From: Escherichia phage RDN8.1
Sequence record: MN414250.1
Reading direction: 5' to 3' (one strand)
Length of the DNA stretch: 39,508 bases
Position numbers and translations under genes: made by a program. Of this stretch, positions 1 through 39,508 are shown one piece after another. Positions within the stretch are counted from its first letter, which is position 1. The number at the start of each line of letters is the position of its first letter. The notes below the pieces were generated by a model, which was given only the letters and a program-made list of their open reading frames with translations, did no database searches and was not told the origin of the DNA.

Positions 1-639
1 CTGTACCAACTCAACGGCTACATCTTCGCTATGGAAGTTGGCGGTATGCGTGGTGGTTATGAAGACTCTACGCTGGAAGCCTTGGCTAAGATTGGTCGTA
101 AGTGGAAGGTCAACGAGTACGTCATTGAGGGTAACTTCGGTGATGGTATGTACCTTGAGCTATTCAAGCCTGTAGCGGCCCGTATCCATCCTGCGGCTGT
201 AACTGAAGTGAAGAGTAAGGGTCAGAAAGAACTCCGCATCTGTGACGTTCTGGAGCCTATCATGGGGTCTCACAGACTTATCGTTAACGCTGCTGCCATA
301 GTACAAGACTACCAGTCGGCCTCTGATAAGGATGGTGTTCGTAACCCTATCTACTCTCTCTTCTACCAGATGACACGTATCTCTCGTGAACGTGGAGCCT
401 TGGCACACGATGACAGACTTGATGCGCTGGCTATCGGTGTACAGTTCTTCGTTGAGTCTATGGCTAAGGATGCCAACAAAGGCGAACGTGAAGTCACCGA
501 GGAGTGGCTGGAGGAACAGATGGAGAACCCACGGAAAGGCTTCGAGTCCATCCACACTGAGTTCTGGGACAATGGGGTCCGGGTGACTCACGATACGGAC
601 GACGAGCTTGGACTAGGGTCGTACGTTGCGTTCCACTAG
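1..639 (+). CDS. Large terminase subunit (T7 gp19-like), C-terminal part; 5' end lies at 38024..39508 because the window is circularly permuted
   Basis: Reading frame continuous from window start; translation ([15 protein letters not shown]...LFYQMTRISRERGALAHDDRLDALA) matches recalled T7 gp19 C-terminus; 1..357 identical to 39152..39508. Confidence 0.93.
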   Translation: MYQLNGYIFAMEVGGMRGGYEDSTLEALAKIGRKWKVNEYVIEGNFGDGMYLELFKPVAARIHPAAVTEVKSKGQKELRICDVLEPIMGSHRLIVNAAAIVQDYQSASDKDGVRNPIYSLFYQMTRISRERGALAHDDRLDALAIGVQFFVESMAKDANKGEREVTEEWLEEQMENPRKGFESIHTEFWDNGVRVTHDTDDELGLGSYVAFH

Positions 640-1914: not shown

Positions 1915-2035
1915 AGCTTCCGTCAACACGACACGGCAAACACCGGATAGTGAAGACGCCGGGTCACACGGTTAAGTAGACAGCCTGATAAGTCATACGA
2001 ACAACAGGCAGTGACAAGAAGTAAGAAATAAACGC

Positions 2036-3160: not shown

Positions 3161-3420
3161 TGAAAACCGAATACACTAACAAACCATCTAGCCGTAGCCG
3201 TGTGGAGCAAGCGCACCGTGACATGTTCTTACAGCGCCGCATGAGGGCTGAGGGCCATAAGTCCGAACTAATGTGTCTGGCGTATGGTGGACGACCAATC
3301 ACTGACGATGGCAAACTTCTGGTCTCAGGCTGGAAGGCGATAGACCAACGGTCAACCATCAAGCACACGACTCATGGTGACTTCAGTCATCTTCAAGCTA
3401 ACCCACTGATATGCAAGTGA
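3160..3420 (+). CDS. Hypothetical early protein, 86 aa
   Basis: ATG overlaps upstream stop (TAATGA); fills the gap before gene 1; no recognised motif. Confidence 0.4.
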   Translation: MKTEYTNKPSSRSRVEQAHRDMFLQRRMRAEGHKSELMCLAYGGRPITDDGKLLVSGWKAIDQRSTIKHTTHGDFSHLQANPLICK

Positions 3421-3425
3421 TTCTG

Positions 3426-3448
3426 ACTTAACTATCACTATAGGACTC
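3426..3448 (+). promoter_or_regulatory. Phage RNAP promoter-like sequence upstream of the RNAP gene, predicted +1 at 3443
   Basis: TTAACTATCACTATAGGACTCAAGG; same variant as at 734 and 26754. Confidence 0.5.
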
Positions 3449-3517
3449 AAGGTCTAAGACTCCAAGTGAAAGACCGAAGAGACTTTAAGTGAAAGACTAA
3501 TAACAAGGACTTTAAGT

Positions 3518-8113: not shown

Positions 8114-8525
8114 AGTAGACGAGAGGTCAGCCTCAGGGCTGTCCCTTCACTCTGGACGTAAGGTAGGCAGTAAGAAAGCATCCGGTTATTGGACAGTGAA
8201 CGTCAGGACGCCGTGGGGACGCAAGCACCTACAGGTCCATCGGGTAATCTGGGAGTTGACATATGGCCCAATACCAGATGGCATGGAGATTGACCACATT
8301 GACCGAGACCCTTCCAACAACAGGCTTTCCAATCTGCGACTGGTGACTCACTCCGAGAACAACCAGAACAAAGGACAGATGTCCACCAACACTACCGGAG
8401 AGCGCCACATCTCCAAGGTTAAAGGTCGAAAGCTCTATTGCATCAAGAAGGTGATTAACGGAGAGCGTGTGGTCCGGTACACCAAGACCATAGCCGAGGC
8501 GGTAGCCTTAAGAGATTCATTATAA
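8043..8525 (+). CDS. HNH endonuclease; start uncertain (first in-frame ATG 8043 lies inside ligase; GTG 8196 also possible)
   Basis: [44 protein letters not shown]; paralogous to 37591..38031. Confidence 0.65.
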   Translation: MAHCGTRHSTNGEGLRTILQSRFKVDERSASGLSLHSGRKVGSKKASGYWTVNVRTPWGRKHLQVHRVIWELTYGPIPDGMEIDHIDRDPSNNRLSNLRLVTHSENNQNKGQMSTNTTGERHISKVKGRKLYCIKKVINGERVVRYTKTIAEAVALRDSL

Positions 8526-19532: not shown

Positions 19533-19945
19533 CCGGGTGCATCGAGTGGAAGTGGGCCAAATCCTCAGCAGGATACGGGCAGAAGCGTATAGACGGTAAG
19601 TTAGTGTATATGCACCGACTCGCTTACGCCGATGCGCATGGTCCAATACCAGACGGAATGCTCGTCCGTCATAAGTGTGATAATCCAGCGTGTTTCAACG
19701 TAAACCACTTAGAGTTAGGAACTCAGCGTGATAACATGCAGGACGCCTCAAAGCGTGGTCGCGTCAATAAAACCAAAATGGCTAGAGGTGAAGACCAAGG
19801 GTTATCGGTTTTAACAGAAGACCTTGTTCGAGAAATCCGCAAGTCAACCGTAGGTTGTACAACACTGGCTCGTGAGCTAGGAGTTAGCAAGTCTACAGTT
19901 TTGCGTGTTCGCCAAGGTAAAACATGGAGGCACGTAGATGGCTGA
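19529..19945 (+). CDS. HNH endonuclease (T7 gene 7.7 position), probable TTG start
   Basis: CIEWKWAKSSAGYGQ...YMHRLAY...HKCDNPACFNVNHLELGTQRDN. Confidence 0.7.
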   Translation: MTGCIEWKWAKSSAGYGQKRIDGKLVYMHRLAYADAHGPIPDGMLVRHKCDNPACFNVNHLELGTQRDNMQDASKRGRVNKTKMARGEDQGLSVLTEDLVREIRKSTVGCTTLARELGVSKSTVLRVRQGKTWRHVDG

Positions 19946-21506
19946 ACGTGAAGGATTTGCTGCTGAAGGCGCGAAGTCAGTTTATGATAGATTGAAGAAC
20001 GGACGACAGCCTTACGAGACCCGCGCACAGAACTGCGCTGCCGTGACCATCCCGTCACTGTTTCCTAAGGAGTCCGACAACTCGTCTACGGAATATACAA
20101 CCCCGTGGCAGGCTGTAGGTGCTCGATGTCTGAATAACCTTGCGGCTAAGCTGATGCTGGCCCTGTTCCCTCAGTCACCGTGGATGCGACTTACGGTCTC
20201 CGAATATGAGGCCAAGACCTTGAGTCAGGACTCTGAGGCTGCTGCCCGTGTTGACGAGGGGCTGGCTATGGTCGAGCGTGTATTGATGGCCTACATGGAG
20301 ACTAACAGTTTCCGTGTCCCATTGTTTGAAGCTCTGAAGCAGCTTATCGTCTCCGGTAACTGTCTGCTCTACATTCCAGAGCCTGAACAGGGAACCTACA
20401 GTCCCATGCGAATGTACCGCTTAGTGTCTTACGTTGTTCAACGTGATGCATTCGGTAACATCTTGCAGATTGTGACTCTCGACAAGGTAGCGTTTAGTGC
20501 TCTACCGGAAGACGTGAAGTCTCAACTCAACGCAGACGACTATGAGCCTGACACCGAGCTTGAAGTGTATACGCACATCTACCGTCAGGACGACGAGTAT
20601 CTGCGATACGAGGAAGTGGAAGGCATTGAGGTAACAGGGACCGATGGTTCCTACCCGCTGACTGCGTGTCCGTACATCCCGGTACGAATGGTTCGACTGG
20701 ATGGTGAAGACTACGGTCGTTCTTACTGCGAGGAGTATCTGGGAGACCTGAACTCGCTGGAGACGATTACAGAAGCTATCACCAAAATGGCTAAGGTAGC
20801 CTCCAAGGTGGTGGGCCTCGTTAACCCGAACGGCATCACGCAACCTCGACGTCTGAACAAGGCGGCTACAGGTGAGTTCGTTGCTGGTCGCGTTGAGGAC
20901 ATCAACTTCCTGCAACTGACGAAAGGTCAGGACTTTACGATTGCTAAGTCGGTGGCTGATGCTATCGAGCAACGTTTAGGCTGGGCCTTCCTTCTTAATA
21001 GCGCTGTTCAGCGTAATGCCGAGCGGGTAACTGCTGAAGAGATTCGTTATGTTGCTGGCGAACTGGAGGCGACCTTAGGTGGCGTGTACTCAGTACAGTC
21101 ACAAGAGCTTCAGTTACCTATCGTCCGTGTGCTGATGAACCAGCTTCAGTCTGCTGGCATGATTCCTGACCTTCCGAAAGAAGCGGTAGAGCCTACGGTC
21201 TCCACTGGTCTGGAAGCGTTAGGTCGTGGTCAAGACTTAGAGAAGCTGACTCAGGCAGTCAACATGATGACCGGGCTACAGCCTCTGCAACAGGACCCAG
21301 ACATTAACTTGCCGACCCTGAAGCTGCGACTTCTGAATGCCTTGGGCATTGACACTGCTGGTCTACTGCTGACTCAGGACGAGAAGCTGCAACGTATGGC
21401 TGAACAATCTGCTCAAGGAGCTGTGGTCAACGGTGCGTCTGCTGCTGGTGCTAACATGGGCGCTGCCGTAGGTCAAGGAGCTGGTGAGGACATGGCTCAA
21501 GCCTAA
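19938..21506 (+). CDS. Portal (head-tail connector) protein (T7 gp8 homologue)
   Basis: 522 aa; GAKSVYDRLKN, YETRAQNCA, PSLFPK, YRLVSYVVQRDAFGN, RVTAEEIRYVAGELE match recalled T7 gp8. Confidence 0.97.
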   Translation: MAEREGFAAEGAKSVYDRLKNGRQPYETRAQNCAAVTIPSLFPKESDNSSTEYTTPWQAVGARCLNNLAAKLMLALFPQSPWMRLTVSEYEAKTLSQDSEAAARVDEGLAMVERVLMAYMETNSFRVPLFEALKQLIVSGNCLLYIPEPEQGTYSPMRMYRLVSYVVQRDAFGNILQIVTLDKVAFSALPEDVKSQLNADDYEPDTELEVYTHIYRQDDEYLRYEEVEGIEVTGTDGSYPLTACPYIPVRMVRLDGEDYGRSYCEEYLGDLNSLETITEAITKMAKVASKVVGLVNPNGITQPRRLNKAATGEFVAGRVEDINFLQLTKGQDFTIAKSVADAIEQRLGWAFLLNSAVQRNAERVTAEEIRYVAGELEATLGGVYSVQSQELQLPIVRVLMNQLQSAGMIPDLPKEAVEPTVSTGLEALGRGQDLEKLTQAVNMMTGLQPLQQDPDINLPTLKLRLLNALGIDTAGLLLTQDEKLQRMAEQSAQGAVVNGASAAGANMGAAVGQGAGEDMAQA

Positions 21507-21524
21507 ACTATCACTATAGGAACA
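21502..21524 (+). promoter_or_regulatory. Phage RNAP promoter (phi9-like), predicted +1 at 21519
   Basis: GCCTAAACTATCACTATAGGAACA; overlaps portal stop. Confidence 0.65.
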
Positions 21525-21526
21525 AC

Positions 21527-21620
21527 TAGAGCCACTCAAGGTGGGACTTACTGTAGCGCAAACAATGACCGTGGGTATTGAGCCTAAGTCATCCTACAGG
21601 TCCCACCTTGAGTGGCTCTA
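21527..21620 (+). other. Long hairpin in the gene 9 leader: perfect 21-bp inverted repeat (21527..21547 / 21600..21620) plus inner 6-bp pair
   Basis: TAGAGCCACTCAAGGTGGGAC and its exact reverse complement; CTGTAG (21551..21556) / CTACAG (21594..21599). Confidence 0.8.
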
Positions 21621-21650
21621 CCTATTAACGACTTAAAGGAGAATGACTCA

Positions 21651-22535
21651 ATGTCTCAATCAGTTTATGCCGAGTTCGGCGTTAGCTCTAACGCAATCAC
21701 TGGTTCCGTTGAGGACCTGAACGAACACCAGAAGTCTATGCTTGAACGGGACGTAGCTGTTCGTGATGGCGACGACGCTATTACCTTCAAGCAACTGGAA
21801 GCCGAGAACGAAGAGGCTACCGAAGAAGACGCGAACGTCGAAGAGACTGAAGGTGAAGAAGACCACGAGTACGATGGAGAAGAGCCTGAGACCGATGGTG
21901 AACAACCTGAGTTCGTCGAACTGGGTGATGCACCTAAAGAGCTGACCGAAAGTGTCACCGCTCTGGATGAAAACGAAGCTGCATTCGACGATATGGTGTC
22001 TTCTGCTGTAGAAGCTGGCAAGGTCACTGCTGATGAAATTACCGCTATCAAGGCTGAATACGCCAAGGACGGTAAGCTGTCTGACGCATCCTACGCTAAG
22101 TTGCAGGAAGCAGGTTACACCAAGCGTTTCGTAGATTCGTTTGTCCGTGGTCAGGAAGCTCTGGCTGAACAGTATGCTGCTGGTGTGGTTCGCTACGCTG
22201 GTGGGGCTGAACAGTTTAATCGCATCCTGTCCCACCTTGAGTCAAACGACCCGTCAACTCGTGAAGCACTGGAAGCTGCTATCGTTCGTAAGGACATTGC
22301 GACTACCAAAGCTCTGCTGAATCTTGCTGGAAAGACTCTGGGTAAAGCTGTAGGCGTTAAACCTCAGCGTACCATCACCACTCAGGCTAAACCTGTGGTA
22401 GCACCTAAGGCTCCTCAGACCGAAGCATTCAGCTCAAAGGCTGACATGATTAAGGCTATGAGTGACCCACGATACCTGCGTGACGCTAAGTACACTATGG
22501 AAGTTCGCGCTAAGGTAGCTGCCTCAAGCCTGTAG
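21651..22535 (+). CDS. Scaffolding protein (T7 gp9 homologue)
   Basis: ATG after AAGGAG; VYAEFGV, acidic central region, KAMSDPRY match recalled T7 gp9; upstream GTG 21612 lies inside the hairpin. Confidence 0.9.
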   Translation: MSQSVYAEFGVSSNAITGSVEDLNEHQKSMLERDVAVRDGDDAITFKQLEAENEEATEEDANVEETEGEEDHEYDGEEPETDGEQPEFVELGDAPKELTESVTALDENEAAFDDMVSSAVEAGKVTADEITAIKAEYAKDGKLSDASYAKLQEAGYTKRFVDSFVRGQEALAEQYAAGVVRYAGGAEQFNRILSHLESNDPSTREALEAAIVRKDIATTKALLNLAGKTLGKAVGVKPQRTITTQAKPVVAPKAPQTEAFSSKADMIKAMSDPRYLRDAKYTMEVRAKVAASSL

Positions 22536-22536
22536 G

Positions 22537-22559
22537 ACTAAACTATCACTATAGGGAGA
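22537..22559 (+). promoter_or_regulatory. Phage RNAP promoter (phi10-like), full consensus with GGGAGA start, predicted +1 at 22554
   Basis: TAAACTATCACTATAGGGAGACC; followed by structured leader and AGGAG RBS. Confidence 0.75.
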
Positions 22560-22663
22560 CCAAGAGACAGACTCAAGGTTTCCCCCTATTACTTCGGTCC
22601 ATACGGATTGGGCGTACAGTAAGTAATATACTTTATCTTTCAATTGAATAGGAGAATTATCAT

Positions 22664-23125
22664 ATGGCAAACGTTCCGGGTCAGAAAGTTGGTACAGACC
22701 AAGGTAAAGGCAAATCTGGTTCCGACGCTCTGGCGTTGTTCCTGAAGGTATTTGCTGGTGAAGTCCTGACCGCATTCACTCGCCGCTCCGTAACTGCTGA
22801 CAAGCATATTGTCCGCACCATTCAGAACGGTAAGTCTGCTCAGTTCCCGGTAATGGGTCGCACCTCTGGTGTCCCGGCTGCATCCGATGAAAACATCGCT
22901 GGTCTGGGCAAAGCGTCTGTGCTGGAAGTTGGTACTAAAGCCGACCTGAACACTCCGGCTAAACTGGGTGAAGCAATCATCGGTCAACTGACCATTGCTC
23001 GTGCGAAGCTGACCTCCAACTACGTTCCTGCTGGCGACCGTTACTTCTACACAACGCCGGACAACTACTCTGCAATCCTCGCGGCTCTGATGCCTAACGC
23101 TGCTCGGGCAACATCCGTAACGTAA
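22664..23125 (+). CDS. Major capsid protein (T7 gp10A homologue), N-terminal ORF; lacks about 73 residues relative to T7 and ends at an out-of-frame junction
   Basis: GKSAQFPV.GRT then ENI.GLG...NYVPA.DR.FY..PD.YSAILAALMPNAA match T7 gp10A residues about 58-71 and 152-226; stop at 23123. Confidence 0.85.
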   Translation: MANVPGQKVGTDQGKGKSGSDALALFLKVFAGEVLTAFTRRSVTADKHIVRTIQNGKSAQFPVMGRTSGVPAASDENIAGLGKASVLEVGTKADLNTPAKLGEAIIGQLTIARAKLTSNYVPAGDRYFYTTPDNYSAILAALMPNAARATSVT

Positions 23126-23460
23126 TGGGCTTCGTTGTGGTTGAGGTTCCGCACCTGACCGCTGGTGGTGCTGGTGAGACCCGTGGTGACGATGGTATTT
23201 CCATTGCATCTGGTCAGAAGCACGGCTTCCCAGAAACCTCTAGCTCTACCGTTAAGGTGGCGCTGGACAACGTTGTGGGCCTGTTCTCTCACCGCTCTGC
23301 TGTGGGTACTGTTAAGCTGCGTGATTTGGCGCTGGAACGTGACCGTGACGTCGATGCTCAGGGCGACCTGATTGTCGGTAAGTACGCTATGGGTCACGGC
23401 GGTCTGCGTCCTGAAGCGGCTGGCGCACTGGTTTTCAAAGCAGCAGCTCCGCAGGGTTAA
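23125..23460 (+). CDS. Major capsid protein, C-terminal ORF (-1 frame relative to 22664..23125)
   Basis: IRNVMGFVVVEVPHLTAGGAG...SAVGTVKLRDLALER...YAMGHGGLRPEAAGALVFK matches T7 gp10A C-terminus. Confidence 0.85.
   Translation: MGFVVVEVPHLTAGGAGETRGDDGISIASGQKHGFPETSSSTVKVALDNVVGLFSHRSAVGTVKLRDLALERDRDVDAQGDLIVGKYAMGHGGLRPEAAGALVFKAAAPQG
23430..23439 (+). other. Putative -1 ribosomal frameshift site (G GTT TTC AAA) giving the minor capsid form
   Basis: Same GGTTTTCAAA motif as recalled at the end of T7 gene 10A; -1 frame open to 23723. Confidence 0.5.
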
Positions 23461-23723
23461 TGACCTTTAAGTTGGCTGGGGATTCGTCCCCGGTCGTTGA
23501 GACACTCGAATCGACAGTAGGTGCGAGCCTAAAGGTGGAACTGACCGAACTAGCAGATGTGACCGACTGGTCCCTGCTTGAGGTCTCCACGGATAGTGCC
23601 GTGTCCTACTCCCGCCGAGCGAATAGTCTCTACTTTAAGGCTGCGGTGGCTGGTGACTACCAGATTATCATCGGCTATGATGGCTCGCCTGTGCGGTCCT
23701 TCAAGCTGCAAGTCTCTAACTAA
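23460..23723 (+). CDS. Minor-capsid C-terminal extension (about 87 aa, beta-rich), reached by -1 frameshift or from ATG 23460
   Basis: -1 frame relative to capsid C-terminal ORF; followed directly by terminator. Confidence 0.5.
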   Translation: MTFKLAGDSSPVVETLESTVGASLKVELTELADVTDWSLLEVSTDSAVSYSRRANSLYFKAAVAGDYQIIIGYDGSPVRSFKLQVSN

Positions 23724-23729
23724 TTGAAA

Positions 23730-23766
23730 CCCCTTGGGTGCCTTCGGGTGCTTGAGGGGGTTTTTT
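23730..23766 (+). terminator. T-phi-like terminator after the capsid gene
   Basis: CCCCTTGGGTGCCTTCGGGTGCTTGAGGGGG + TTTTTT; G-U-rich stem as in T7 T-phi. Confidence 0.8.
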
Positions 23767-23781
23767 GCTTAAGGAGGGCCT

Positions 23782-24348
23782 ATGGCTCAGTACATCCCAC
23801 TGAACGCTAATGATGACTTAGATGCTATCAACGACATGTTAGCGGCTATCGGTGAACCAGCAGTCCTACAGCTTGACGAAGGGAACGCAGACGTCTCGAA
23901 CGCTCAGCGCATCCTGCACCGTGTCAATCGTCAGGTCCAAGCTAAGGGCTGGAACTTTAACATCAACGAGTCTGCTGTACTCACACCGGACATCCAAGAC
24001 CAAAGGATTCGATTCCTGCCGTCTTACCTCCGGGTCATGACTACAGGCTCGACCAGTTACTACAGCAACATGGGAGGCTACCTATATGACCTCAGTACCC
24101 AATCCACGACCTTCACCGGGCCTGTTACCGTAGAACTGGTGGAGATGAAGCCCTTCGCAGAGATGCCAGTGGTCTTCCGGGACTACATCGTGACCAAGGC
24201 CAGCCGAGAGTTTAACGCCAAGTTCTTCGGTAGCCCTGAGTCCGAGCAGTACCTACGGGAGCAGGAGGCTGAGCTGTACCAGCAGGTCATGGAGTATGAG
24301 CTGGACACCGGACGCTACAACATGATGTCTTCCATCGGTCGAGACTAA
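23782..24348 (+). CDS. Tail tubular protein A (T7 gp11 homologue)
   Basis: 188 aa; IGEP, GWNFNI, IVTKASREFNAKFFG, MEYELD..GRYNM match recalled T7 gp11. Confidence 0.93.
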   Translation: MAQYIPLNANDDLDAINDMLAAIGEPAVLQLDEGNADVSNAQRILHRVNRQVQAKGWNFNINESAVLTPDIQDQRIRFLPSYLRVMTTGSTSYYSNMGGYLYDLSTQSTTFTGPVTVELVEMKPFAEMPVVFRDYIVTKASREFNAKFFGSPESEQYLREQEAELYQQVMEYELDTGRYNMMSSIGRD

Positions 24349-24359
24349 TAGGAGGTGAT

Positions 24360-26729
24360 ATGCCACTTTATACACAATCAATCAAGAACCTGAAGGGTGG
24401 CATTAGCCAACAGCCTGACATCCTGAGGTTCTCGGACCAAGGGGAGCAGCAGATTAACGGCTGGTCTTCCGAGAGTGATGGTCTACAGAAGCGCCCGCCT
24501 ACCGTCTGGAAGCGGAGGCTCTCAGCGGTGAACTGGGTTATTCCTAACACAGCGAAGTTCCACCTCATCAACCGGGACGAGACCGAGCAGTATTACATCG
24601 TCTTCACCGGGAAGGACATCATGGTCTTTGACCTTGAGGGGAACCAGTACGCTGTTACAGGTGGCATGACCTACGTAAACACTGATAAGCCGAGAGACGA
24701 CATCCGGGTAATCACCGTGGCTGACTATACGTTCATCGTGAATCGCCGCACTACGGTCCTCGCAGATAAGGCCACGGCGCACGTTGGATACAACATGAAG
24801 AACCGGGCGCTGATTAACCTTCGGGGTGGTCAATACGGTCGCAAGCTGAAGGTCGGTATTAATGGTGGGACCAAGGTTGAACACCAGTTGCCTCCGGGCG
24901 ATAACGCTAAGGATGACCCACCTAAGGTTGATGCTCAGGCTATCGGTGCCGCTCTTATTGCTCTGCTGACTCCAGCGTATCCGGGCTACACGTTCACCCT
25001 TGGGTCTGGCTACATTGAGATTAAGGCCCCTGCTGGCGGTTCTATTACCTCAGTGGAGACCGAGGACGGGTACGCTAACCAGTTAATCAACGCTGTGCTG
25101 GACACTGTGCAGACTATCAGCAAGCTGCCTCTGGCAGCACCTGAGGGCTACATTATCCGCATCCAAGGGGAGACCAATAGTTCTGCCGATGAATACTTCG
25201 TTCGGTATGACTCAGCGCGTAAGACTTGGCGTGAGACCGTGGAGCCGGGGACTATAACCCGCTTCGATTCGTCCACTATGCCACACGCTCTGGTCCGTCA
25301 GGCCGATGGTAGCTTTAAGTTTCAGACTCTGGACTGGGGCGAGCGTGGAGCGGGTAACGAGGACACCAACCCTATGCCGAGCTTCGTGAACTCTCGGATT
25401 AACGATGTGTTCTTCTACCGCAACCGCTTGGGGTTCCTCTCTGGTGAGAACGTCATTATGTCCCGTTCGGCTGGATACTTTGCGTTCTTCCCGAAAAGTG
25501 TGGCGACCTTAAGTGATGACGACCCGATTGATGTGGCTGTGAGCCACCCTCGAATCTCCATCCTGAAGTATGCCGTACCGTTCGCTGAGCAGCTCCTCCT
25601 TTGGTCCGATGAGGTCCAGTTCGTGATGACCAGCTCTGGGGTACTGACCTCTAAGTCCATCAAGCTTGACGTTGGCTCTGAGTTCGCTGTGAGTGATAAC
25701 GCCAGACCTTTCGCTATTGGACGCTCAGTCTTCTTTGCGGCCCCTCGTGGCTCGTTCACCAGCATTAACCGCTACTTTGCGGTGGCTGACGTAACGGACG
25801 TGAAGGACGCTGACGACACGACAGGTCACGTTCTGTCTTACATCCCCAACGGAGTGTTTGACATCCAAGGTTCCTCGACTGAGAACTTCATCACGGTATC
25901 CACTGAGGGCGCGCCCAATAATCTGTTTGTGTACAAGTTCCTCTTTAAGGATGGCGTACAGCTTCAGGCATCGTGGTCTCACTGGGAGCTGGAGCAGGGA
26001 GAGCAGATTATGGCCTCAGCCTGTATCGGGTCCTCTATGTACCTCGTTCGCAAGCATGGATATGGGGTGGACTTGGAGAAGCTGGAGTTCATCAAGGAGA
26101 CCGTGGACATCGGAGGTGAGCCGTACCGACTGCACATCGACGGTAAGACGACTATGGTCGTGCCGACTAATGCGTTCAACCCGGACACCTACACTACGTC
26201 CTTCGACGTGGGGGCCGCTTACGGTGGGGTCTTCCCGCCAGCAGGTCGATACCTCATGGTAGACTCAAGCGGGCGATTCGTCGCTCTACCGGATACCGTG
26301 TGGTCCAGCACTCGCTGGGTGACAGTGAAGGGTGACTGGTCCGGGAAGACTGTATTCCTCGGTCGTGTCTATAAGTTCACCTACGCCTTCTCTCGGTTCC
26401 TCATCAAGTATGAAGACCAGAACGGGACGGTGACGGAGGACTCTGGGCGCTTGCAGCTTCGTCGCGCTTGGGTGAACTACCAGCGGACTGGTGCGCTTGC
26501 TATGCGAGTCGTCAACCAGCAGCGTGAGTTCGTTAACACCTTGAACGGCTACAAGCTGGGACTACAGGATGTAGGGACGGTGAACATCGGAGATGGTCAA
26601 TTCCGCTTCCCGATGAATGGAGATGCCCTGCAAACTCGGTTAATCCTTGAGTCCGACTATCCGACCCCAGTGTCAATCGTTGGGTGCGGCTGGGAGGCCT
26701 CCTACGCACGGAAAGCTAAATCCATCTAA
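24360..26729 (+). CDS. Tail tubular protein B (T7 gp12 homologue)
   Basis: 789 aa; QSIKNLKGGISQQPDILR, VTVADYTFIVNR, RNRLGFLSGEN, RLQLRRAWVNY, GCGWE match recalled T7 gp12. Confidence 0.95.
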   Translation: MPLYTQSIKNLKGGISQQPDILRFSDQGEQQINGWSSESDGLQKRPPTVWKRRLSAVNWVIPNTAKFHLINRDETEQYYIVFTGKDIMVFDLEGNQYAVTGGMTYVNTDKPRDDIRVITVADYTFIVNRRTTVLADKATAHVGYNMKNRALINLRGGQYGRKLKVGINGGTKVEHQLPPGDNAKDDPPKVDAQAIGAALIALLTPAYPGYTFTLGSGYIEIKAPAGGSITSVETEDGYANQLINAVLDTVQTISKLPLAAPEGYIIRIQGETNSSADEYFVRYDSARKTWRETVEPGTITRFDSSTMPHALVRQADGSFKFQTLDWGERGAGNEDTNPMPSFVNSRINDVFFYRNRLGFLSGENVIMSRSAGYFAFFPKSVATLSDDDPIDVAVSHPRISILKYAVPFAEQLLLWSDEVQFVMTSSGVLTSKSIKLDVGSEFAVSDNARPFAIGRSVFFAAPRGSFTSINRYFAVADVTDVKDADDTTGHVLSYIPNGVFDIQGSSTENFITVSTEGAPNNLFVYKFLFKDGVQLQASWSHWELEQGEQIMASACIGSSMYLVRKHGYGVDLEKLEFIKETVDIGGEPYRLHIDGKTTMVVPTNAFNPDTYTTSFDVGAAYGGVFPPAGRYLMVDSSGRFVALPDTVWSSTRWVTVKGDWSGKTVFLGRVYKFTYAFSRFLIKYEDQNGTVTEDSGRLQLRRAWVNYQRTGALAMRVVNQQREFVNTLNGYKLGLQDVGTVNIGDGQFRFPMNGDALQTRLILESDYPTPVSIVGCGWEASYARKAKSI

Positions 26730-26736
26730 CCTCTTG

Positions 26737-26787
26737 AAAGGCCTATAGTTTCTACTTAACTATCACTATAGGGACTATAGGCCCTTT
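26737..26787 (+). other. Inverted repeat bracketing the phi13 promoter (AAAGGCCTATAG / CTATAGGCCCTTT); possible R13-like processing structure
   Basis: 12-bp complementary arms with one bulged C around promoter 26754..26776. Confidence 0.35.
26754..26776 (+). promoter_or_regulatory. Phage RNAP promoter (phi13-like), predicted +1 at 26771
   Basis: CTTAACTATCACTATAGGGACT. Confidence 0.6.
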
Positions 26788-26804
26788 AAGTTATAGGAGA
26801 CTTT

Positions 26805-27266
26805 ATGTATATTCGTAAGGCTACTGAACAGGACGTAAGGTCCTTTGAAATCGCTATAGATGACATTAACGAGCTGATGGCGCATGACCCACGGAGAGAC
26901 CTTAAGTCTGTCCTGCTGTCTCACCTCACTCCGTCATCTGTGGTTTTGGTCGATGCTCTTGGGACCGTGTACGCCTATGGTGGAAACCAAGGGGATAACG
27001 TATGGTTCCTGACTTCACGTCTGGTCTCCCGGCTGTCAAAGGCTGAGAAGCGAGAGTTCGGTCATCACATTGCATCGTACAGAGACTTAATGTTAGACCA
27101 GTTCCCAGTCCTTTGGAATTACGTCTGGTCGGGCAACAAGTCTCACATTAGGTTTCTCAAGTTGTTGGGCGCTAAGTTTCACCCTGAGGTGACTATCAGC
27201 CCGGTGACTGGGGAGAGATTCCAACTATTCACTATCTCTAAGGAGGACGTATGTGCGAACCCGTGA
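26805..27266 (+). CDS. Internal virion protein A (gp13-like), by synteny
   Basis: 153 aa ORF after AGGAGA, between gp12 and gp14 homologues. Confidence 0.55.
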   Translation: MYIRKATEQDVRSFEIAIDDINELMAHDPRRDLKSVLLSHLTPSSVVLVDALGTVYAYGGNQGDNVWFLTSRLVSRLSKAEKREFGHHIASYRDLMLDQFPVLWNYVWSGNKSHIRFLKLLGAKFHPEVTISPVTGERFQLFTISKEDVCANP

Positions 27267-27838
27267 GCATTGGTATGGGTATCATGGCTGTGGCGGGTGC
27301 CACTATGTCCGCTTCAAGTCAGGCCAAGGCCGAAGGTGCAGCGATTGACGCTCAGAACCGACAGGCTCAGGAAATGATTAAGCAGATGAACTACTCTGAC
27401 GCTAACCTGAAGATGCAGGAGCGAGACCTTAAGGAACAGCAGGTCGCTGAACTGACTGAGACGACCCTTAACGGTATTCGCAATCAGGGCATGGTCCGAG
27501 CAGCAGTCGCTGAGTCTGGGCTTGAAGGCAACTCCATGAACCGCATTGAGCGAGAAGTAGAGGGTCAGACTGTGAAAGAGCGGGCTGGCATCACCGAGAG
27601 TTACAACCGTGACTACGCGGCTATCTTCGGCAACCGCATCGCCAACATTGAGAACACCAAGTCTGCCATCAAAGGTCAGCAGAAGATTATCAAGACCAGC
27701 CCTCTGGCTCATGCACTTAACGTCGCGTCTGCTGGTATGCAGGGGTACGCTGCTGGTAGTTCTATCGCCGGGGCTAAGCCTTCGGGCGGTGCAGCTCCAA
27801 TCAGTGCCGCTAAAGGCACACCTACAGGTCATAGCTAA
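27251..27838 (+). CDS. Internal virion protein B (T7 gp14 homologue)
   Basis: 195 aa; MC N-terminus, Gln/Ala-rich, EGNSMNRI, NYRRDY blocks resemble recalled T7 gp14. Confidence 0.8.
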   Translation: MCEPVSIGMGIMAVAGATMSASSQAKAEGAAIDAQNRQAQEMIKQMNYSDANLKMQERDLKEQQVAELTETTLNGIRNQGMVRAAVAESGLEGNSMNRIEREVEGQTVKERAGITESYNRDYAAIFGNRIANIENTKSAIKGQQKIIKTSPLAHALNVASAGMQGYAAGSSIAGAKPSGGAAPISAAKGTPTGHS

Positions 27839-34084: not shown

Positions 34085-36559
34085 ATGGCAGACAACAAGA
34101 CCCTCATCAAGTATCCCACTGGTGAGACACAATATCGTATTCCATTCGATTACCTCGCAAGGTCTTTCGTAAAGGTAAGCCTTGAGGTCTCCACCGACTC
34201 CACTCTTAGTTATCCGCTGACACCGGGTAATGACTATCGGTTCCTGAATGCCACTACCATTGAAATCCTCATTCCGCAGGGTTCCTATGATGTGCTGCAA
34301 ATTCGTCGATTCACTGACACTACTCCTCTGGTCGGATTCCGCGATGGCTCAGTGCTGACAGCTAACGACCTTACAGTCTCTGAGCTTCAGGCAATCCATA
34401 TCGCAGAAGAAGGCCGTGACCAAACGTTAGAGCTGACCGAGAGCTACGTTGAGACTGCTGCTAATATCCGCGACGAAGTTAAGGAGATGCTGGAGGAAAT
34501 GCGGGATGACTTAATCATTCAGCGTGTGTATAAGGATAGCTTTGAGAAGGGTCAGACACTCAACCTTCCCGGCGAGTCCCTGCGACTGGAAGCTACTAAC
34601 ATCTACTATGAGTGGACGGGTAGCTTCCCTAAAGTAGTACCTGCTGGCTCTACACCTGATACGACTGGTGGTGTGACTGCTGGTGCGTGGCGTATGGTAG
34701 GTAACAGCAATATGGAAGCGTTCATGCTCAGTGGGTCTTACCATGTGTTCTCAACCATAGATGACCTGAAGTCCCTTAAGATTAACCCTTCGGTGACAGT
34801 CAACATGCAGGTAGGCTCCAGAGCGATGACCCTTAAGCTGGTTCAGGCAGCTGGTAAGTTCTACAACAAGCGTGTCTACTGGGACATAGTTGCAGCGGAA
34901 AACCCGAACACGTTGAGCGTTCAGCTTGTTAATGGGCTGTGGGCTGCCATGGTAGTGGAAGACGAGCTGTACCCTGCGGTCTTTGGATGGGGCGAGAAGG
35001 ATGACCCTGCTGCTAATGCCGCTGCTTACCATAGAGCATGTGCTGTGGCTGAGGCAAACCCTAACGTCCACACCATTCGTCTACACGCTGGCGCCTTCCG
35101 CAGTGATGGTATAGTGGCTCAGGTTGCACGTAGACGCTTCCGGTTCACTGGGGCTGGCTGGGATAATACCTTTATCCTCTCTGAGTCCTCTGACATCTCG
35201 TTCCACCACAAAGGGTTCAACGAGTCTAACCCAGCACTGGACAAGCGATACTTCCAGCAGATTGTCGATGGCTTCACCGTAGACGGTCAGATGGGTACAC
35301 GTAAAGTCCAAGCCGCTCAACGTACACTCTCCACAGTCCACTACGCCGAGCTTGGCTATAAGTCTGTAAACCATAGGGTGTCACAGGTGGATATTTGTGG
35401 ACTAGTTGTCAAGTGGTACGGTATGACTGGTGCTGGTGTGTATGACGGTGTGTGGTCACAGCATGGCCTACGAGTACGCTACAACTCTATCAAGCTGAAT
35501 GGCTATATTGGTGGAGCGCCTAATCAAATCAACACCATGATTGGTGGCTTCCGTACCAAGCTTATAGCCCCTGCTAAGGCTGGTGACACCACGATTCAGG
35601 TAGAGAACCTGCGCAACGGTCAGACCTACGACATCCTAGAGGTTGGCGGTGGTACACTTGAGGCTCCACGCATAAAGTCAAGAACAGGGAACACCATCAC
35701 ACTGTTCGCCCCTCTGGAGTACGACCACACGGTTAACGCAGTGGTTAGACTTCCGGTTGTTGGGACTGAGGTTCAGGGTACTCTTGAGGTTGGTATCATC
35801 TACATTGCTGACGCTGAGGCTACAACCGTTCATGGCATCTACTCAGAGGAATCTAAGTTCTACCTTTCTGGACTTCTTCAAGGTTGTGAGATTCACGGCA
35901 ACAGTATTGCGGAAGCAAACCCTACTGTACAGGTTGACTCTAACGTAGACCCTAGAAGTCACATCCGAATTGTGTCTAACAACACGTACTTCCCAGTGAC
36001 AATCGCAGTGGCCGATGAGACCGGAGCAGTAAACAACAGGCTTGACCTCAAGCGCTTCCCTAACATCGAGATTAAGGGCAACACACGCGCTCAGAACTCA
36101 ATCTGGGTAAATGGTGTATACTCCTTTAGTTCTCTCCGAGTATACCGAACGTATGACTCTGGGATGAGCGATGTGTCAATGACCACTATGGAATTCGACG
36201 GTCTATCTGCTCAGTTGGCTGGCGGAGCTGTAAGTGATGCCCTCCTGCTCGCATCGTTCCCAGCAACAAGGCCGTATAAATGGGATGGCTACACCTTTGA
36301 CCTTACGGCTACTTATCGTCGAGTTGGTAAGATGGGTGGCGGCACACTCAAACGTGCTGGTCACGCGCTAACCGATGGTACGACCCACGATGTGAACGTT
36401 CAACGCTACGTCTCAACTGGCAGTACTTGGTCTGAGGCTGGCGTAGACCTTCTGTTCGGTGCCACTGGTACCCGCGCGTCTGTTACTGCTCGAGGTGAGG
36501 CTAGTGGTGCTTGGCCTACGAGTATGTCAATCAGAGGTATCATCACCCACGCAAACTGA
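34085..36559 (+). CDS. Tail fibre / tailspike: T7 gp17-like N-terminal adaptor domain fused to a large non-T7 C-terminal domain (putative receptor-binding or polysaccharide-degrading domain)
   Basis: 824 aa; N-terminal about 150 aa (YRIPFDYLARSFVKV, FRDGSVLTANDL, LQAIHIAEEGRD) match recalled T7 gp17; remainder shows no T7 similarity. Confidence 0.88.
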   Translation: MADNKTLIKYPTGETQYRIPFDYLARSFVKVSLEVSTDSTLSYPLTPGNDYRFLNATTIEILIPQGSYDVLQIRRFTDTTPLVGFRDGSVLTANDLTVSELQAIHIAEEGRDQTLELTESYVETAANIRDEVKEMLEEMRDDLIIQRVYKDSFEKGQTLNLPGESLRLEATNIYYEWTGSFPKVVPAGSTPDTTGGVTAGAWRMVGNSNMEAFMLSGSYHVFSTIDDLKSLKINPSVTVNMQVGSRAMTLKLVQAAGKFYNKRVYWDIVAAENPNTLSVQLVNGLWAAMVVEDELYPAVFGWGEKDDPAANAAAYHRACAVAEANPNVHTIRLHAGAFRSDGIVAQVARRRFRFTGAGWDNTFILSESSDISFHHKGFNESNPALDKRYFQQIVDGFTVDGQMGTRKVQAAQRTLSTVHYAELGYKSVNHRVSQVDICGLVVKWYGMTGAGVYDGVWSQHGLRVRYNSIKLNGYIGGAPNQINTMIGGFRTKLIAPAKAGDTTIQVENLRNGQTYDILEVGGGTLEAPRIKSRTGNTITLFAPLEYDHTVNAVVRLPVVGTEVQGTLEVGIIYIADAEATTVHGIYSEESKFYLSGLLQGCEIHGNSIAEANPTVQVDSNVDPRSHIRIVSNNTYFPVTIAVADETGAVNNRLDLKRFPNIEIKGNTRAQNSIWVNGVYSFSSLRVYRTYDSGMSDVSMTTMEFDGLSAQLAGGAVSDALLLASFPATRPYKWDGYTFDLTATYRRVGKMGGGTLKRAGHALTDGTTHDVNVQRYVSTGSTWSEAGVDLLFGATGTRASVTARGEASGAWPTSMSIRGIITHAN

Positions 36560-37150: not shown

Positions 37151-37594
37151 ATGCTCGAACTTTTACGTAAAGCGCTCCCGTGGTTAGCGGCAGGACTCCT
37201 GTTCTGTTCAGGCTACTGGGTGGCAGACACAAAGTGGGAGGCGAAAGTAAGCAATGAGTACATCACTAAATTACAAGCAGAGGACAGAACGCGCACTTCG
37301 GTACAGCGAGAGGTGTCACGTATTGCAGCGGACTACCAAGACAAGCTGTCCGCGCTGGAAGGCTCTACTGATAGGATTATTGCTGACCTTAACCGCGATA
37401 ACAAGCGGTTGCGCATCAGAGTCCAACCTACCAGTGGAACGGTCCAAAGTGACGGTCGATGCGTCATTGATGGTTACGCCGACCTTGATGAGCGAGATGC
37501 TAAACGTCTTATCGCCATCGGACTGAAGGGCGACGAGTGGATTAAAGCCTTGCAGGGGACCATCAGGGCCTTGCAGCAGGAGAAGGAGAAATGA
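37151..37594 (+). CDS. Rz-like i-spanin (T7 gp18.5 homologue)
   Basis: 147 aa; N-terminal TM LPWLAAGLLF; EGSTDRIIADLNRDNKRLRIRV, DERDAKRLIA match recalled T7 Rz. Confidence 0.85.
   Translation: MLELLRKALPWLAAGLLFCSGYWVADTKWEAKVSNEYITKLQAEDRTRTSVQREVSRIAADYQDKLSALEGSTDRIIADLNRDNKRLRIRVQPTSGTVQSDGRCVIDGYADLDERDAKRLIAIGLKGDEWIKALQGTIRALQQEKEK
37254..37526 (+). CDS. Rz1-like o-spanin lipoprotein embedded in Rz in the +1 frame; start uncertain (possibly TTG about 37323)
   Basis: Embedded ORF with hydrophobic segment ALLIGLLLTLTAI and lipobox-like TSGC. Confidence 0.45.
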   Translation: MSTSLNYKQRTERALRYSERCHVLQRTTKTSCPRWKALLIGLLLTLTAITSGCASESNLPVERSKVTVDASLMVTPTLMSEMLNVLSPSD

Positions 37595-38031
37595 TGCTCA
37601 GTGATTCGTATGTCTATGATGAGTCCAGTAAGTCTGGCCTGAAGTCCCTGCGTTCTGGTAAGGATGTGGGGTGTGTGGGAAACCACGGGTATTATCAGGT
37701 AGGAACTCGACGTCATGGACTCCTGCTGGCCCATAGAGTCGTCTGGGAGCTAACCAACGGTCCTATACCAGAAGGTATGGAGATTGACCATATTGACCGC
37801 TGCCGGACTAACAACAGGCTTGACAACCTCCGGCTAGTTACTTCAAGCGAGAACTCCTGCAACACCTCAGGACATTCTGACTCAAAGACTGGAGTTAAGA
37901 ACATATCGTTCCATCAGAATGGCTACGCTATCGAGGTCATGCGTAAGGGAGTCCGTATGCGAACAACACGTCCTACTTTAGAGGAGGCTATCTCTGTCCG
38001 GGACCTAATGCTGGAGGGACTATATGTCTAA
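37591..38031 (+). CDS. HNH endonuclease inserted between Rz and terminase
   Basis: AGGAG RBS; [41 protein letters not shown]; paralogue of 8043..8525. Confidence 0.8.
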
Positions 38032-39508
38032 GAAAACACCTGCTGAAAGACAGGCTGAAATGACCCAAAGGATGAGGGACGACTTCGTGTTCTTCATCTT
38101 TGTTCTCTGGAAAGCGCTGAGCCTTCCGGTTCCAACTAGATGTCAGATAGATATGTGTAAGAAGCTGGCTGCTGGCGATAACCGACGATTCATCCTTCAG
38201 GCGTTCCGAGGTATTGGCAAATCGTTTCTGACCTGTGGTTTCGTGGTCTGGAAATTATGGAACAACCCAGACTTAAAGTTCATGATTGTGTCGGCCTCAA
38301 AGGAGCGAGCCGATGCGAACTCCATCTTCATCAAGCGAATCATCGACCTAATGCCTCAGCTTCAGGAACTCAAACCTAAGCAGGGACAGCGAGATGCGGT
38401 TATCAGCTTCGACGTAGGGCCAGCCAAGCCAGACCACTCACCTTCGGTTAAGTCCGTTGGTATCACTGGTCAGTTGACTGGTAGTCGTGCTGACATCCTG
38501 ATTGCCGATGACGTGGAGGTTCCGAACAACTCAGCGACTCAGGCCGCACGAGACCGTCTGTCAGAGCTTGTGAAAGAGTTCGACGCTATTCTGAAGCCGG
38601 GAGGTACAATCATCTATCTGGGTACTCCTCAGAACGAGATGACTTTGTATCGTGAGCTGGAAGGCCGTGGGTACACCACTACTATCTGGCCTGCTCGTTA
38701 TCCACGCGACAGGAAGGACTGGCAGTCTTACGGCGACCGTCTGGCGCCGATGCTTCAGGCGGAGCTGGAAGAGGACCCTGAGTCCTTCTACTGGCGTCCG
38801 ACCGATGAAGTTCGATTCGACGATACTGACCTGAAGGAACGCGAGCTGTCCTACGGTAAAGCTGGCTTCGCTCTACAGTTCATGCTTAACCCGAACCTGA
38901 GTGATGCCGAGAAGTACCCTCTGAAGCTCCGTGACCTTATCGTAGCAGACTTGGACCCAGCGTCCAGCCCAATGGTCTACCAATGGTTGCCGAACCCTCA
39001 GAACAAGCGTGAGGACGTTCCTAACGTTGGACTCATGGGTGACTCATACCACACGTATCAGACTGTAGGTTCTGCCTTCAGTTCGTACACCCAGAAGATT
39101 CTGGTCATAGACCCTAGTGGTCGTGGCAAGGATGAAACTGGCTATGCGGTACTGTACCAACTCAACGGCTACATCTTCGCTATGGAAGTTGGCGGTATGC
39201 GTGGTGGTTATGAAGACTCTACGCTGGAAGCCTTGGCTAAGATTGGTCGTAAGTGGAAGGTCAACGAGTACGTCATTGAGGGTAACTTCGGTGATGGTAT
39301 GTACCTTGAGCTATTCAAGCCTGTAGCGGCCCGTATCCATCCTGCGGCTGTAACTGAAGTGAAGAGTAAGGGTCAGAAAGAACTCCGCATCTGTGACGTT
39401 CTGGAGCCTATCATGGGGTCTCACAGACTTATCGTTAACGCTGCTGCCATAGTACAAGACTACCAGTCGGCCTCTGATAAGGATGGTGTTCGTAACCCTA
39501 TCTACTCT
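38024..39508 (+). CDS. Large terminase subunit (T7 gp19 homologue), N-terminal part; runs off the window end and continues at 1..639
   Basis: ATG 38024 overlaps HNH stop; [13 protein letters not shown] (Walker A), [55 protein letters not shown] match recalled T7 gp19. Confidence 0.95.
39152..39508. repeat. Exact copy of window positions 1..357 (assembly / circular-permutation overlap inside the terminase gene)
   Basis: Direct comparison of both ends; reading frame preserved across the join. Confidence 0.95.

What the first reader, a model, noticed from the sequence alone, without database searches (positions are those of the whole stretch)
22664..23723. Major capsid gene shortened and split by a frameshift
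Both ORFs align well to T7 gp10A, but the N-terminal ORF jumps from about T7 residue 79 to 152 (about 73 residues missing; junction flanked by a shared GAGAAC/EN microhomology). Near 23100 about 28 nt are missing relative to T7 (T7 NYAALIDPEKGS absent), so the conserved IRNVMGF... continuation is in the -1 frame, with no slippery heptamer at that junction. An HK97-fold capsid protein should not tolerate either change. Candidate explanations are a defective or engineered genome, an assembly/sequencing error, or an undescribed recoding event. The T7-type frameshift motif and 10B-like extension downstream are intact, so only the body of the gene is affected.
Basis: partly seen in the sequence, partly recalled or inferred. 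Interest (0 to 1): 0.75.

Follow-up and report, generated by a model that had tools for sequence, protein, structure and literature searches.

The report
Broken capsid gene, probably misassembled
The major capsid gene in this T7-like coliphage genome (GenBank record of Escherichia phage RDN8.1) really does lack 256 bases in two places, but the evidence indicates an error in the deposited assembly, not a new kind of capsid or a recoding signal.

Summary
Compared with its closest relatives (genus Kayfunavirus), the capsid gene at 22664-23723 lacks 228 nt (76 codons, in frame) at 22873|22874. It also lacks exactly 28 nt at 23104|23105, which moves the rest of the gene into the -1 frame. Every other gene in the window is intact.

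The lesions remove the region modelled as E-loop and spine helix of an HK97-fold protein. In 4691 homologues, the 120 best are all 337-354 aa. No slippery site lies at the frame change, and neither junction occurs in any public collection I scanned.

The window is the 39,508-nt record of Escherichia phage RDN8.1, which its publication's title describes as characterised with in vitro lytic activity. It carries an exact 357-nt overlap between its ends, inside the terminase gene, which marks uncurated assembler output. A contig from an independent sequencing run by the same laboratory is 100% identical to 2.7 kb of the window up to the first junction. It then continues with the wild-type sequence.

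The retained capsid codons show only synonymous differences from relatives, so there has been no decay. Most likely this is an assembly artefact (about 0.75). A real defective subpopulation is the main rival (about 0.15). Recoding is essentially excluded. Interest is low.

The parts
22547..22559 (+). Phage RNA polymerase promoter core (CACTATAGGGAGA) upstream of the capsid gene, at the position of the T7 phi10 promoter
   Evidence: Read directly from the sequence and located by pattern search. The region is identical in Logan contig L010 and conserved in Peacock.
22650..22654 (+). Ribosome binding site AGGAG of the capsid gene
   Evidence: Peacock annotates the same motif as its RBS.
22664..22873 (+). 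Capsid gene segment A: codons 1-70 (N-arm), intact
   Evidence: 0 nonsynonymous and 5 synonymous codon differences from Peacock. 100% identical to Logan contig SRR9686322_192.
22873..22874 (+). Junction 1: 228 nt (76 codons, residues 71-146 of relatives) missing, in frame
   Evidence: Alignment A1. Contig L010, of the same strain, continues here with wild-type GTATCTGGCTCC. Junction 24-34-mers are absent from IMG/VR, JGI metagenome contigs and GTDB genome contigs.
22874..23104 (+). Capsid gene segment B: 77 codons (residues 147-223 of relatives), a 231-nt island between the two deletions
   Evidence: 0 nonsynonymous and 6 synonymous codon differences from Peacock.
23104..23105 (+). Junction 2: clean 28-nt deletion (AACTAYGCTGCGCTGATTGACCCWGAGA), which shifts the downstream gene to the -1 frame
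   Evidence: The junction 23-30-mers are absent from IMG/VR, metagenome contigs and genome contigs.
23105..23125 (+). Out-of-frame tail of ORF1 (RATSVT, then stop TAA at 23123-23125)
23105..23460 (+). Capsid gene segment C (residues about 233-350 of an intact gene) in the -1 frame. This frame is open from 23092. The listed ORF starts at ATG 23125. Stop at 23458-23460.
   Evidence: Pfam PF21703 positions 184-279. Translation SGNIRNVMGF... aligns with relatives. NCBI names the 111-aa product 'major capsid protein [Escherichia phage RDN8.1]'.
23430..23436 (+). GGTTTTC, the T7-type 10A/10B -1 frameshift site, intact
   Evidence: The same motif is at the same place in T7, Peacock and Kp11.
23437..23723 (+). 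10B-type C-terminal extension read in the -1 frame after the slip, open to the stop at 23721-23723
   Evidence: translation GFQSSSSAGLMTFKLAGD...QVSN*. The 87-aa ORF is identical in Logan contig SRR35864872_4482.
23730..23770 (+). Tphi-like terminator hairpin (CCCCTTGGGTGCCTTCGGGTGCTTGAGGGG) followed by a T run
   Evidence: Identical in Peacock and EcSW4.
1..357 (+). Exact copy of window 39152-39508 inside the terminase large-subunit gene. This is assembler run-around and shows the record is unpolished assembler output.
   Evidence: prefix equals suffix over 357 nt. (terminase aa 376-587 at 1-636 and aa 8-494 at 38048-39508).

Best explanation
The window is the deposited genome of Escherichia phage RDN8.1, a Kayfunavirus. 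The two gaps in its major capsid gene are most likely errors made when short reads were assembled. The laboratory's usual assembler is the seed-and-extend program IVA, which merges contig ends by similarity. The real phage very probably carries an ordinary gene 10 of about 350 codons, with the usual 10A/10B frameshift.

Shown:
- The gaps exist only in this sequence.
- They would destroy the fold.
- The rest of the genome and the rest of the gene are intact.
- An independent read-derived contig of the identical strain is wild-type at the first junction.

Inferred:
- IVA was used for this genome.
- The second gap is also absent from the reads.
- How the misjoin arose.
For: 1. Identity and viability. 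ORF2 equals NCBI 'major capsid protein [Escherichia phage RDN8.1]' on a contig of 39,508 nt, which is the window length. RDN8.1 was published as a characterised phage with in vitro activity against uropathogenic E. coli (citation seen), so it must build capsids.
2. Independent reads. Logan contig SRR9686322_192 is 100.000% identical to window 20166-22872 (2707 nt), where GenBank relatives are only about 90% identical. It then continues GTATCTGGCTCC as in intact relatives, not CCCGGCTGC. That run comes from the same laboratory.
3. Raw assembler output. There is an exact 357-nt terminal redundancy inside the terminase gene. The laboratory's other phage papers all used Illumina reads with IVA 1.0.8. 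IVA extends seeds by consensus k-mers and merges contig ends with nucmer, and its paper does not mention circular genomes.
4. No evolutionary decay. The 147 retained codons of segments A and B have 0 nonsynonymous and 11 synonymous differences from Peacock. All other 50-odd genes give single intact matches.
5. Uniqueness. Both junctions are absent from IMG/VR, JGI metagenome contigs and GTDB genome contigs. Of 4691 homologues, the best 120 are all 337-354 aa.
6. Structural impossibility. In an AlphaFold2 model of an intact relative (pTM 0.69), residues 71-146 contain strand 97-104, helix 107-112 and the long helix 116-144. The model matches solved capsids of E1004, Kp9, T7 and HK97.
7. Precedent. 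GenBank records of phages that were isolated and spot-tested on host panels carry multi-deletion or split capsid genes. Examples are RCIP0048 and RCIP0018, which share identical deletion boundaries, plus RCIP0029, RCIP0109 and 02/03/04_vB_Eclo_IJM.
Against: - I could not inspect raw reads.
- The wild-type contig runs only 12 nt past junction 1 and says nothing about junction 2.
- Its abrupt end there could itself reflect a mixture of wild-type and deleted molecules.
- SRR9686322 is cited as the reads of a different phage, VMJ710. The RDN8.1-identical contig is therefore carry-over or a mis-cited accession, and its provenance is indirect.
- The RDN8.1 paper is not held, so the use of IVA for this genome is inferred from sister papers.
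- No specific mechanism explains why an assembler would make two blunt deletions 231 nt apart in one gene.
Confidence: 0.75

Rival explanations
1. The deletions are real and dominated the sequenced lysate. In this reading a capsid-defective RDN8.1 genome was replicated and packaged in trans by co-infecting wild-type phage during long, high-multiplicity liquid amplification, and the assembler reported the majority variant.
For: The laboratory amplifies phage in broth for 24 h, which allows co-infection. Two lesions in one gene, with all other genes intact, is what relaxed selection on an already dead gene would give. The wild-type contig ends 12 nt after junction 1, which would fit a branch between two variants. 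The 231-nt island is kept in frame with segment A.
Against: A loss of 256 nt from 39 kb gives almost no replication or packaging advantage. A double mutant would have to overtake wild type within a few passages after plaque purification. The only independent sequence of this strain is wild-type at junction 1. The retained segments show no other decay. With at most 1 nt of microhomology, the junctions are unlike slippage between short direct repeats, which to my knowledge is the usual origin of T7 deletions.
Confidence: 0.15
2. Reads from the most conserved parts of the capsid gene were lost or mishandled before assembly, and the assembler closed the coverage holes. Possible causes are decontamination or host-subtraction filtering, or interference from a second T7-like phage in the same run. 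This is a variant of the artefact explanation with a different cause.
For: RCIP genomes were assembled after removing reads that map to bacterial reference genomes. Two different RCIP phages have identical capsid deletion boundaries in highly conserved stretches. Deletion 2 of the window lies inside the RCIP 138-nt gap, and deletion 1 covers the RCIP0048 93-nt gap. The same laboratory's runs show cross-sample carry-over.
Against: I found no description of read filtering for RDN8.1. The capsid gene has no match in 5,426 complete E. coli genomes, so subtraction against an E. coli host genome would not remove these reads. Coverage holes normally break contigs rather than produce clean joins.
Confidence: 0.07
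3. An undescribed recoding event, either a frameshift at 23092-23122 or another mechanism, yields a functional shortened capsid protein. Alternatively, the genome was deliberately engineered.
For: The -1 frame is open for 31 nt before the ORF1 stop, so a shift there would join the two ORFs. The downstream 10A/10B site is intact.
Against: No X XXY YYZ heptamer occurs anywhere in the ORF1 frame. Even a perfect shift would give a protein that lacks 76 residues and a further 9-10, including the helix modelled as the spine helix. No relative has the arrangement. All relatives carry the 28 nt intact. An engineered knockout would normally be one designed deletion, and RDN8.1 was published as a natural isolate.
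Confidence: 0.01

Closest known systems
T7 gene 10 (gp10A/gp10B major and minor capsid proteins; Pfam PF21703; PDB 2xvr, 3j7v-3j7x) and the Kayfunavirus-type capsid of phage E1004 (PDB 9vvq)
   Same: Same gene, position, promoter, RBS, GGTTTTC frameshift site, 10B extension and terminator. The retained parts are up to 100% identical in protein to relatives, and the match to 9vvq has E = 1e-145.
   Different: The record lacks residues 71-146 and 224-232 and is split into two frames. Intact family members are 337-354 aa.
Misassembled or frameshifted capsid genes in other deposited T7-like genomes: Klebsiella phages RCIP0048, RCIP0018, RCIP0029 and RCIP0109; Enterobacter phages 02/03/04_vB_Eclo_IJM; WGS contig LZQQ01000005.1
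   Same: Internal deletions or frame breaks confined to the capsid gene, in records of phages that were isolated and shown to lyse hosts. The gaps overlap the same two regions: the modelled spine helix and the NAANYAALIDPE segment.
   Different: They come from different genera, laboratories and pipelines (SPAdes metaviral plus Pilon for RCIP), and the boundaries are not the same as here. That those records are artefacts is itself an inference from the viability of the phages.
Defective (deletion) phage genomes maintained by helper co-infection
   Same: An essential structural gene is inactivated while all replication and packaging functions are retained.
   Different: The deletion is tiny, so no size advantage is expected. 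I know of no report of such genomes for T7-like phages. The one independent sequence of the strain is wild-type at junction 1.
Programmed -1 ribosomal frameshifting, as at T7 10A/10B
   Same: Two overlapping ORFs related by a -1 shift.
   Different: No slippery heptamer is present, the arrangement is not conserved, and the frame change is explained entirely by a 28-nt loss relative to every relative.

Membership tests
T7-like major capsid protein (Gp10A-like, HK97 fold) | Sequence homology to PF21703 / T7 gp10A | tested here: met
   Pfam E = 1.9e-18 and 2.5e-34 for the two ORFs. PDB hits are 9vvq, 7y23 and 2xvr.
T7-like major capsid protein (Gp10A-like, HK97 fold) | A single continuous reading frame of about 340-350 codons that contains N-arm, E-loop, spine helix, P domain and A domain | tested here: not met
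   The gene is split into 153-aa and 111-aa ORFs and lacks residues 71-146 and 224-232. In the model of an intact relative, the missing part holds strand 97-104 and helices 107-112 and 116-144. The best 120 homologues are 337-354 aa.
T7-type 10A/10B -1 frameshift | GGTTTTC near the end of 10A, with an open -1 frame that encodes a C-terminal extension | tested here: met
   GGTTTTC lies at 23430-23436. The -1 frame is open to 23723 and aligns with T7, Peacock and Kp11. Actual frameshifting was not tested.
Programmed ribosomal frameshift at the ORF1/ORF2 boundary | A slippery heptamer (X XXY YYZ) in the overlap | tested here: not met
   No such heptamer occurs anywhere in the ORF1 frame. The overlap is 23092-23122.
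Programmed ribosomal frameshift at the ORF1/ORF2 boundary | The two-frame arrangement is conserved in relatives | tested here: not met
   All relatives examined have one frame with the 28 nt present. Junction 2 is absent from three public collections.
Assembly artefact in a deposited record | The junction is private to the record, and independent reads of the same strain show the intact sequence | tested here: inconclusive
   Met for the left edge of deletion 1: Logan SRR9686322_192 is 100% identical over 2707 nt and then wild-type for 12 nt. No read-derived sequence was obtained for the right edge of deletion 1 or for deletion 2.
Assembly artefact in a deposited record | Other signs of uncurated assembler output in the same record | tested here: met
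   Exact 357-nt end-to-end redundancy inside the terminase gene.
Assembly artefact in a deposited record | The biological entity is known to be viable although an essential gene is broken in the record | not testable with these tools
   RDN8.1 is cited as a characterised phage with in vitro lytic activity. The paper itself (J Appl Microbiol 2022;132:3387) is not held.
Defective helper-dependent phage genome | The deleted form is present in many independent molecules and coexists with a helper | not testable with these tools
   This needs the raw reads or PCR on the stock.

The most novel reading that the evidence does not exclude
The two deletions are real and mark a capsid-defective Kayfunavirus genome that reached high frequency in a laboratory lysate by using capsid protein from co-infecting wild-type phage. 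That would be a natural cheater genome in a T7-like phage, and similar lesions in other deposited T7-like genomes would hint at a recurrent phenomenon.
Probability: 0.12. Interest if true: 0.45.

Novelty: not a real feature. Interest (0 to 1): 0.07.

Why it matters
If the deletions are the artefact they appear to be, the only consequence is practical. The GenBank record of phage RDN8.1 carries a corrupted major capsid gene and a spurious 357-nt terminal duplication, and it should be re-assembled before use in capsid phylogenies, taxonomy or therapeutic dossiers. Several other deposited T7-like genomes carry similar capsid lesions, which suggests pipeline-specific failure modes worth flagging in curated phage databases. 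If the deletions were real, they would document helper-dependent cheater genomes in a T7-like phage. That would be moderately interesting, but nothing here requires it.

Tried and rejected
1. Exact searches for both junctions in IMG/VR, JGI metagenome contigs and GTDB genome contigs gave no hits. No relative shares the lesions.
2. Exact-protein look-ups of ORF1, ORF2 (P0029), gp11 and portal found nothing on record. The window's own record appears not to be in that index.
3. I rebuilt the presumed intact 350-aa capsid and looked it up by exact sequence. It is not in the collection.
4. I asked whether the missing 76 codons had moved elsewhere in the window. tblastn with the Peacock capsid finds only the three pieces at the locus.
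5. I tested whether subtracting reads that match the E. coli host could have removed capsid reads. The capsid gene has no match in 5,426 complete E. coli genomes.
6. I looked for microhomology or direct repeats at the junctions. TGTGTA occurs near both edges of deletion 1 in Peacock, but a deletion between those copies would give a different junction. The true junctions have at most 1 nt and 0 nt of microhomology.
7. A slippery-site scan of the ORF1 frame found none.
8. A single-sequence AlphaFold2 model of P0001 had pLDDT 32 and was unusable. I replaced it with an MSA-based model of P0055.
9. The RDN8.1 paper and the T7 capsid structure paper (Guo et al. 2014) are not held. Domain names for the deleted residues therefore rest on the model and on general knowledge of the HK97 fold.
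10. The first two protein searches, made with the truncated ORFs, returned only fragmentary homologues. The full-length query was needed to see the normal family.

Full report
**What is in the sequence**

Three consecutive ORFs occupy the region. They are 22664..23125 (153 aa), 23125..23460 (111 aa, -1 relative to the first) and 23460..23723 (87 aa, -1 again). The first two match Pfam PF21703 (Gp10A-like major capsid protein), at profile positions 81-165 and 184-279 of 279.

The window is a complete T7-like genome of the genus Kayfunavirus. The best phage records are about 87-91% identical in DNA.

I aligned 22600-23800 with the annotated relatives Peacock (MK903279) and UFJF_EcSW4 (PP856269). 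The alignment shows exactly two gaps in the window:
- 228 nt (76 codons, in frame) at 22873|22874;
- net 28 nt at 23104|23105.

Eight IMG/VR relatives share the window's right flank and read GCTGCT-AACTACGCTGCGCTGATTGACCCTGAGA-CGGGCAAC. So the second lesion is a clean 28-nt loss.

In the numbering of the 349-aa relatives, the window lacks residues 71-146 and 224-232 plus one base. In T7 numbering these are about 73-148 and 227-235. Downstream, the GGTTTTC 10A/10B site (23430-23436), the open -1 frame to 23723 and the terminator hairpin are intact.

The real junctions have at most 1 nt and 0 nt of microhomology.

**Would the product work, and is there recoding?**

A search with an intact relative found 4691 homologues, and the best 120 are all 337-354 aa.

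I built an AlphaFold2 model of the intact relative P0055 from a 62-sequence alignment (pTM 0.69). It places strand 97-104, helix 107-112 and the long helix 116-144 inside the first deleted stretch. It places helix 225-228 inside the second. The model matches the solved capsids of E1004 (9vvq), Kp9 (7y23), T7 (3j7v, 3j7w) and HK97.

By the standard order of HK97-fold elements (N-arm, E-loop, spine helix), the first deletion removes the E-loop and the spine helix. Assigning those names to these residues is my inference.

No X XXY YYZ heptamer exists anywhere in the ORF1 frame, and the overlap between the two frames is only 23092-23122. Even a perfect shift there could not restore about 85 missing residues. 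Recoding is effectively excluded.

**Is the lesion part of a lineage?**

It is not.
- Both junctions are absent from IMG/VR, JGI metagenome contigs and GTDB genome contigs.
- tblastn of all 54 Peacock proteins against the window shows that the capsid gene is the only conserved, well-matched gene broken into separate frames. One small early gene also gives overlapping matches in two frames at 1853-2019; I did not follow that up. The missing 76 codons are nowhere else in the window.
- The 70 + 77 retained codons of segments A and B differ from Peacock at 11 codons, all synonymous.

The gene therefore shows no sign of having evolved without selection. The lesions are either instantaneous on an evolutionary scale or not biological.

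**Where the window comes from**

ORF2 is identical to NCBI's 'major capsid protein [Escherichia phage RDN8.1]', which sits on a contig of 39,508 nt, the window length.

RDN8.1 (vB_EcoA_RDN8.1) was published by Chaudhary et al. (J Appl Microbiol 2022;132:3387). The title says it was characterised and has in vitro activity against uropathogenic E. coli (citations seen; the paper itself is not held). A phage with that activity must make capsids.

The window begins and ends with the same 357 nt (1-357 = 39152-39508), inside the terminase large-subunit gene. This is run-around by an assembler on a concatemeric or permuted read set. It is not the T7-type terminal repeat.

Every other phage paper I could read from this laboratory used Illumina paired reads with IVA 1.0.8. 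IVA grows seeds by consensus k-mers and merges contig ends with nucmer, and its paper does not mention circular genomes. That IVA was also used for RDN8.1 is an inference.

**Independent sequence of the same strain**

The window's scaffolding protein occurs exactly in one public assembly, Logan contig SRR9686322_192. That contig is 100.000% identical to window 20166-22872 (2707 nt), a region where GenBank relatives differ by several percent. At the deletion-1 junction it continues GTATCTGGCTCC, as intact relatives do, instead of the window's CCCGGCTGC.

SRR9686322 is cited by the same laboratory as the reads of Vibrio phage VMJ710. VMJ710 is an unrelated 121-kb phage. The RDN8.1-identical contig is therefore carry-over between libraries or a mis-cited accession. 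Either way, reads that did not go through the RDN8.1 assembly show the wild-type sequence at the left edge of deletion 1.

The contig stops 12 nt later, so it does not cover the right edge of deletion 1 or deletion 2.

A second Logan contig, SRR35864872_4482, is 99.5% identical to window 23265-27724. It begins downstream of both lesions.

**Precedent**

The truncated-ORF searches turned up other deposited T7-like genomes with damaged capsid genes:
- Klebsiella phages RCIP0029, RCIP0109, RCIP0048 and RCIP0018;
- Enterobacter phages 02/03/04_vB_Eclo_IJM;
- WGS contig LZQQ01000005.1.

RCIP0048 and RCIP0018 differ by SNPs yet share identical boundaries for a 138-nt gap. RCIP0048 also lacks 93 nt of the region modelled as the spine helix.

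Those phages were isolated and spot-tested on 238 host strains. Their reads were filtered against bacterial reference genomes before SPAdes assembly and Pilon correction. Broken capsid genes in records of viable T7-like phages are thus a recurring database artefact, and they overlap the same parts of the gene as here.

**Verdict**

The best explanation is an assembly error in the deposited RDN8.1 record (confidence about 0.75). A closely related alternative is that reads were lost or mixed before assembly (about 0.07).

The main biological rival is a capsid-defective subpopulation that dominated the sequenced lysate and was packaged by wild-type helper (about 0.15). Four things argue against it:
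- a 256-nt loss gives negligible advantage;
- a double mutant would have had to overtake wild type soon after plaque purification;
- the independent contig is wild-type at junction 1;
- the junctions are blunt.

It cannot be excluded without the reads. Engineered or recoding explanations are about 0.01.

The feature is not a real biological novelty. Its value is as an erratum for the record and as a warning for anyone using this capsid sequence.

**What would settle it**

Mapping the RDN8.1 reads to a repaired reference would settle it, as would PCR across 22800-23200 (657 bp if intact, 401 bp if deleted) or mass spectrometry of virion gp10.

Noticed in passing
window 1-357 and 39152-39508: The first and last 357 nt are identical and lie inside the terminase large-subunit gene. 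The record is a circularly permuted assembly with run-around, and its unique length is 39,151 nt. The true T7-type terminal repeat is not represented as such.
   Followed up: yes
window 8043-8525, 19610-19945, 37591-38031: Three ORFs with HNH_3 endonuclease domains (Pfam E = 2e-23, 6e-15 and 2e-21). They sit after the ligase, before the portal gene and before the terminase gene. Peacock has no genes at these places, so they are probably free-standing homing endonucleases.
   Followed up: partly
L010 (Logan SRR9686322_192) versus window 20166-22873: A run cited as the raw reads of Vibrio phage VMJ710 (MN402506, 121 kb, unrelated) contains a contig 100% identical to RDN8.1. This points to cross-sample carry-over in that laboratory's sequencing, or to a mis-cited SRA accession.
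   Followed up: partly
L004 (RCIP0048, OR532842) 3001-3771; L007 (RCIP0018, OR532812) 286-1153: Two different Klebsiella phage records share identical boundaries for a 138-nt capsid-gene deletion. Each also has further gaps of 93, 36 or 26 nt in stretches highly conserved with T7. The pipeline removed reads that map to bacterial references before assembly, which may be the cause.
   Followed up: partly
window 34085-36559: The tail spike matches Peacock only over the N-terminal adaptor of about 216 residues (46% identity). The rest differs, and a Tail_spike_N domain lies at residues 150-206. This is the usual swap of a receptor-binding module.
   Followed up: no
window 1853-2019: The homologue of Peacock's 71-aa early protein (338-553) gives overlapping tblastn matches in two different frames. 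This could be a small frameshift or a repeat in an early gene.
   Followed up: no
L009 (Logan SRR35864872_4482) versus window 23265-27724: A contig 99.5% identical to the window, with an identical 87-aa 10B ORF, occurs in an unrelated recent run. Phages of this species have therefore been sequenced elsewhere. The contig starts inside the capsid gene, downstream of both lesions.
   Followed up: partly
window 21512 and 22547: Two matches to the phage-promoter core CACTA[AT]AGG[GA]A[GC]A, one ahead of the scaffolding gene and one ahead of the capsid gene, as in T7 (phi9 and phi10).
   Followed up: no
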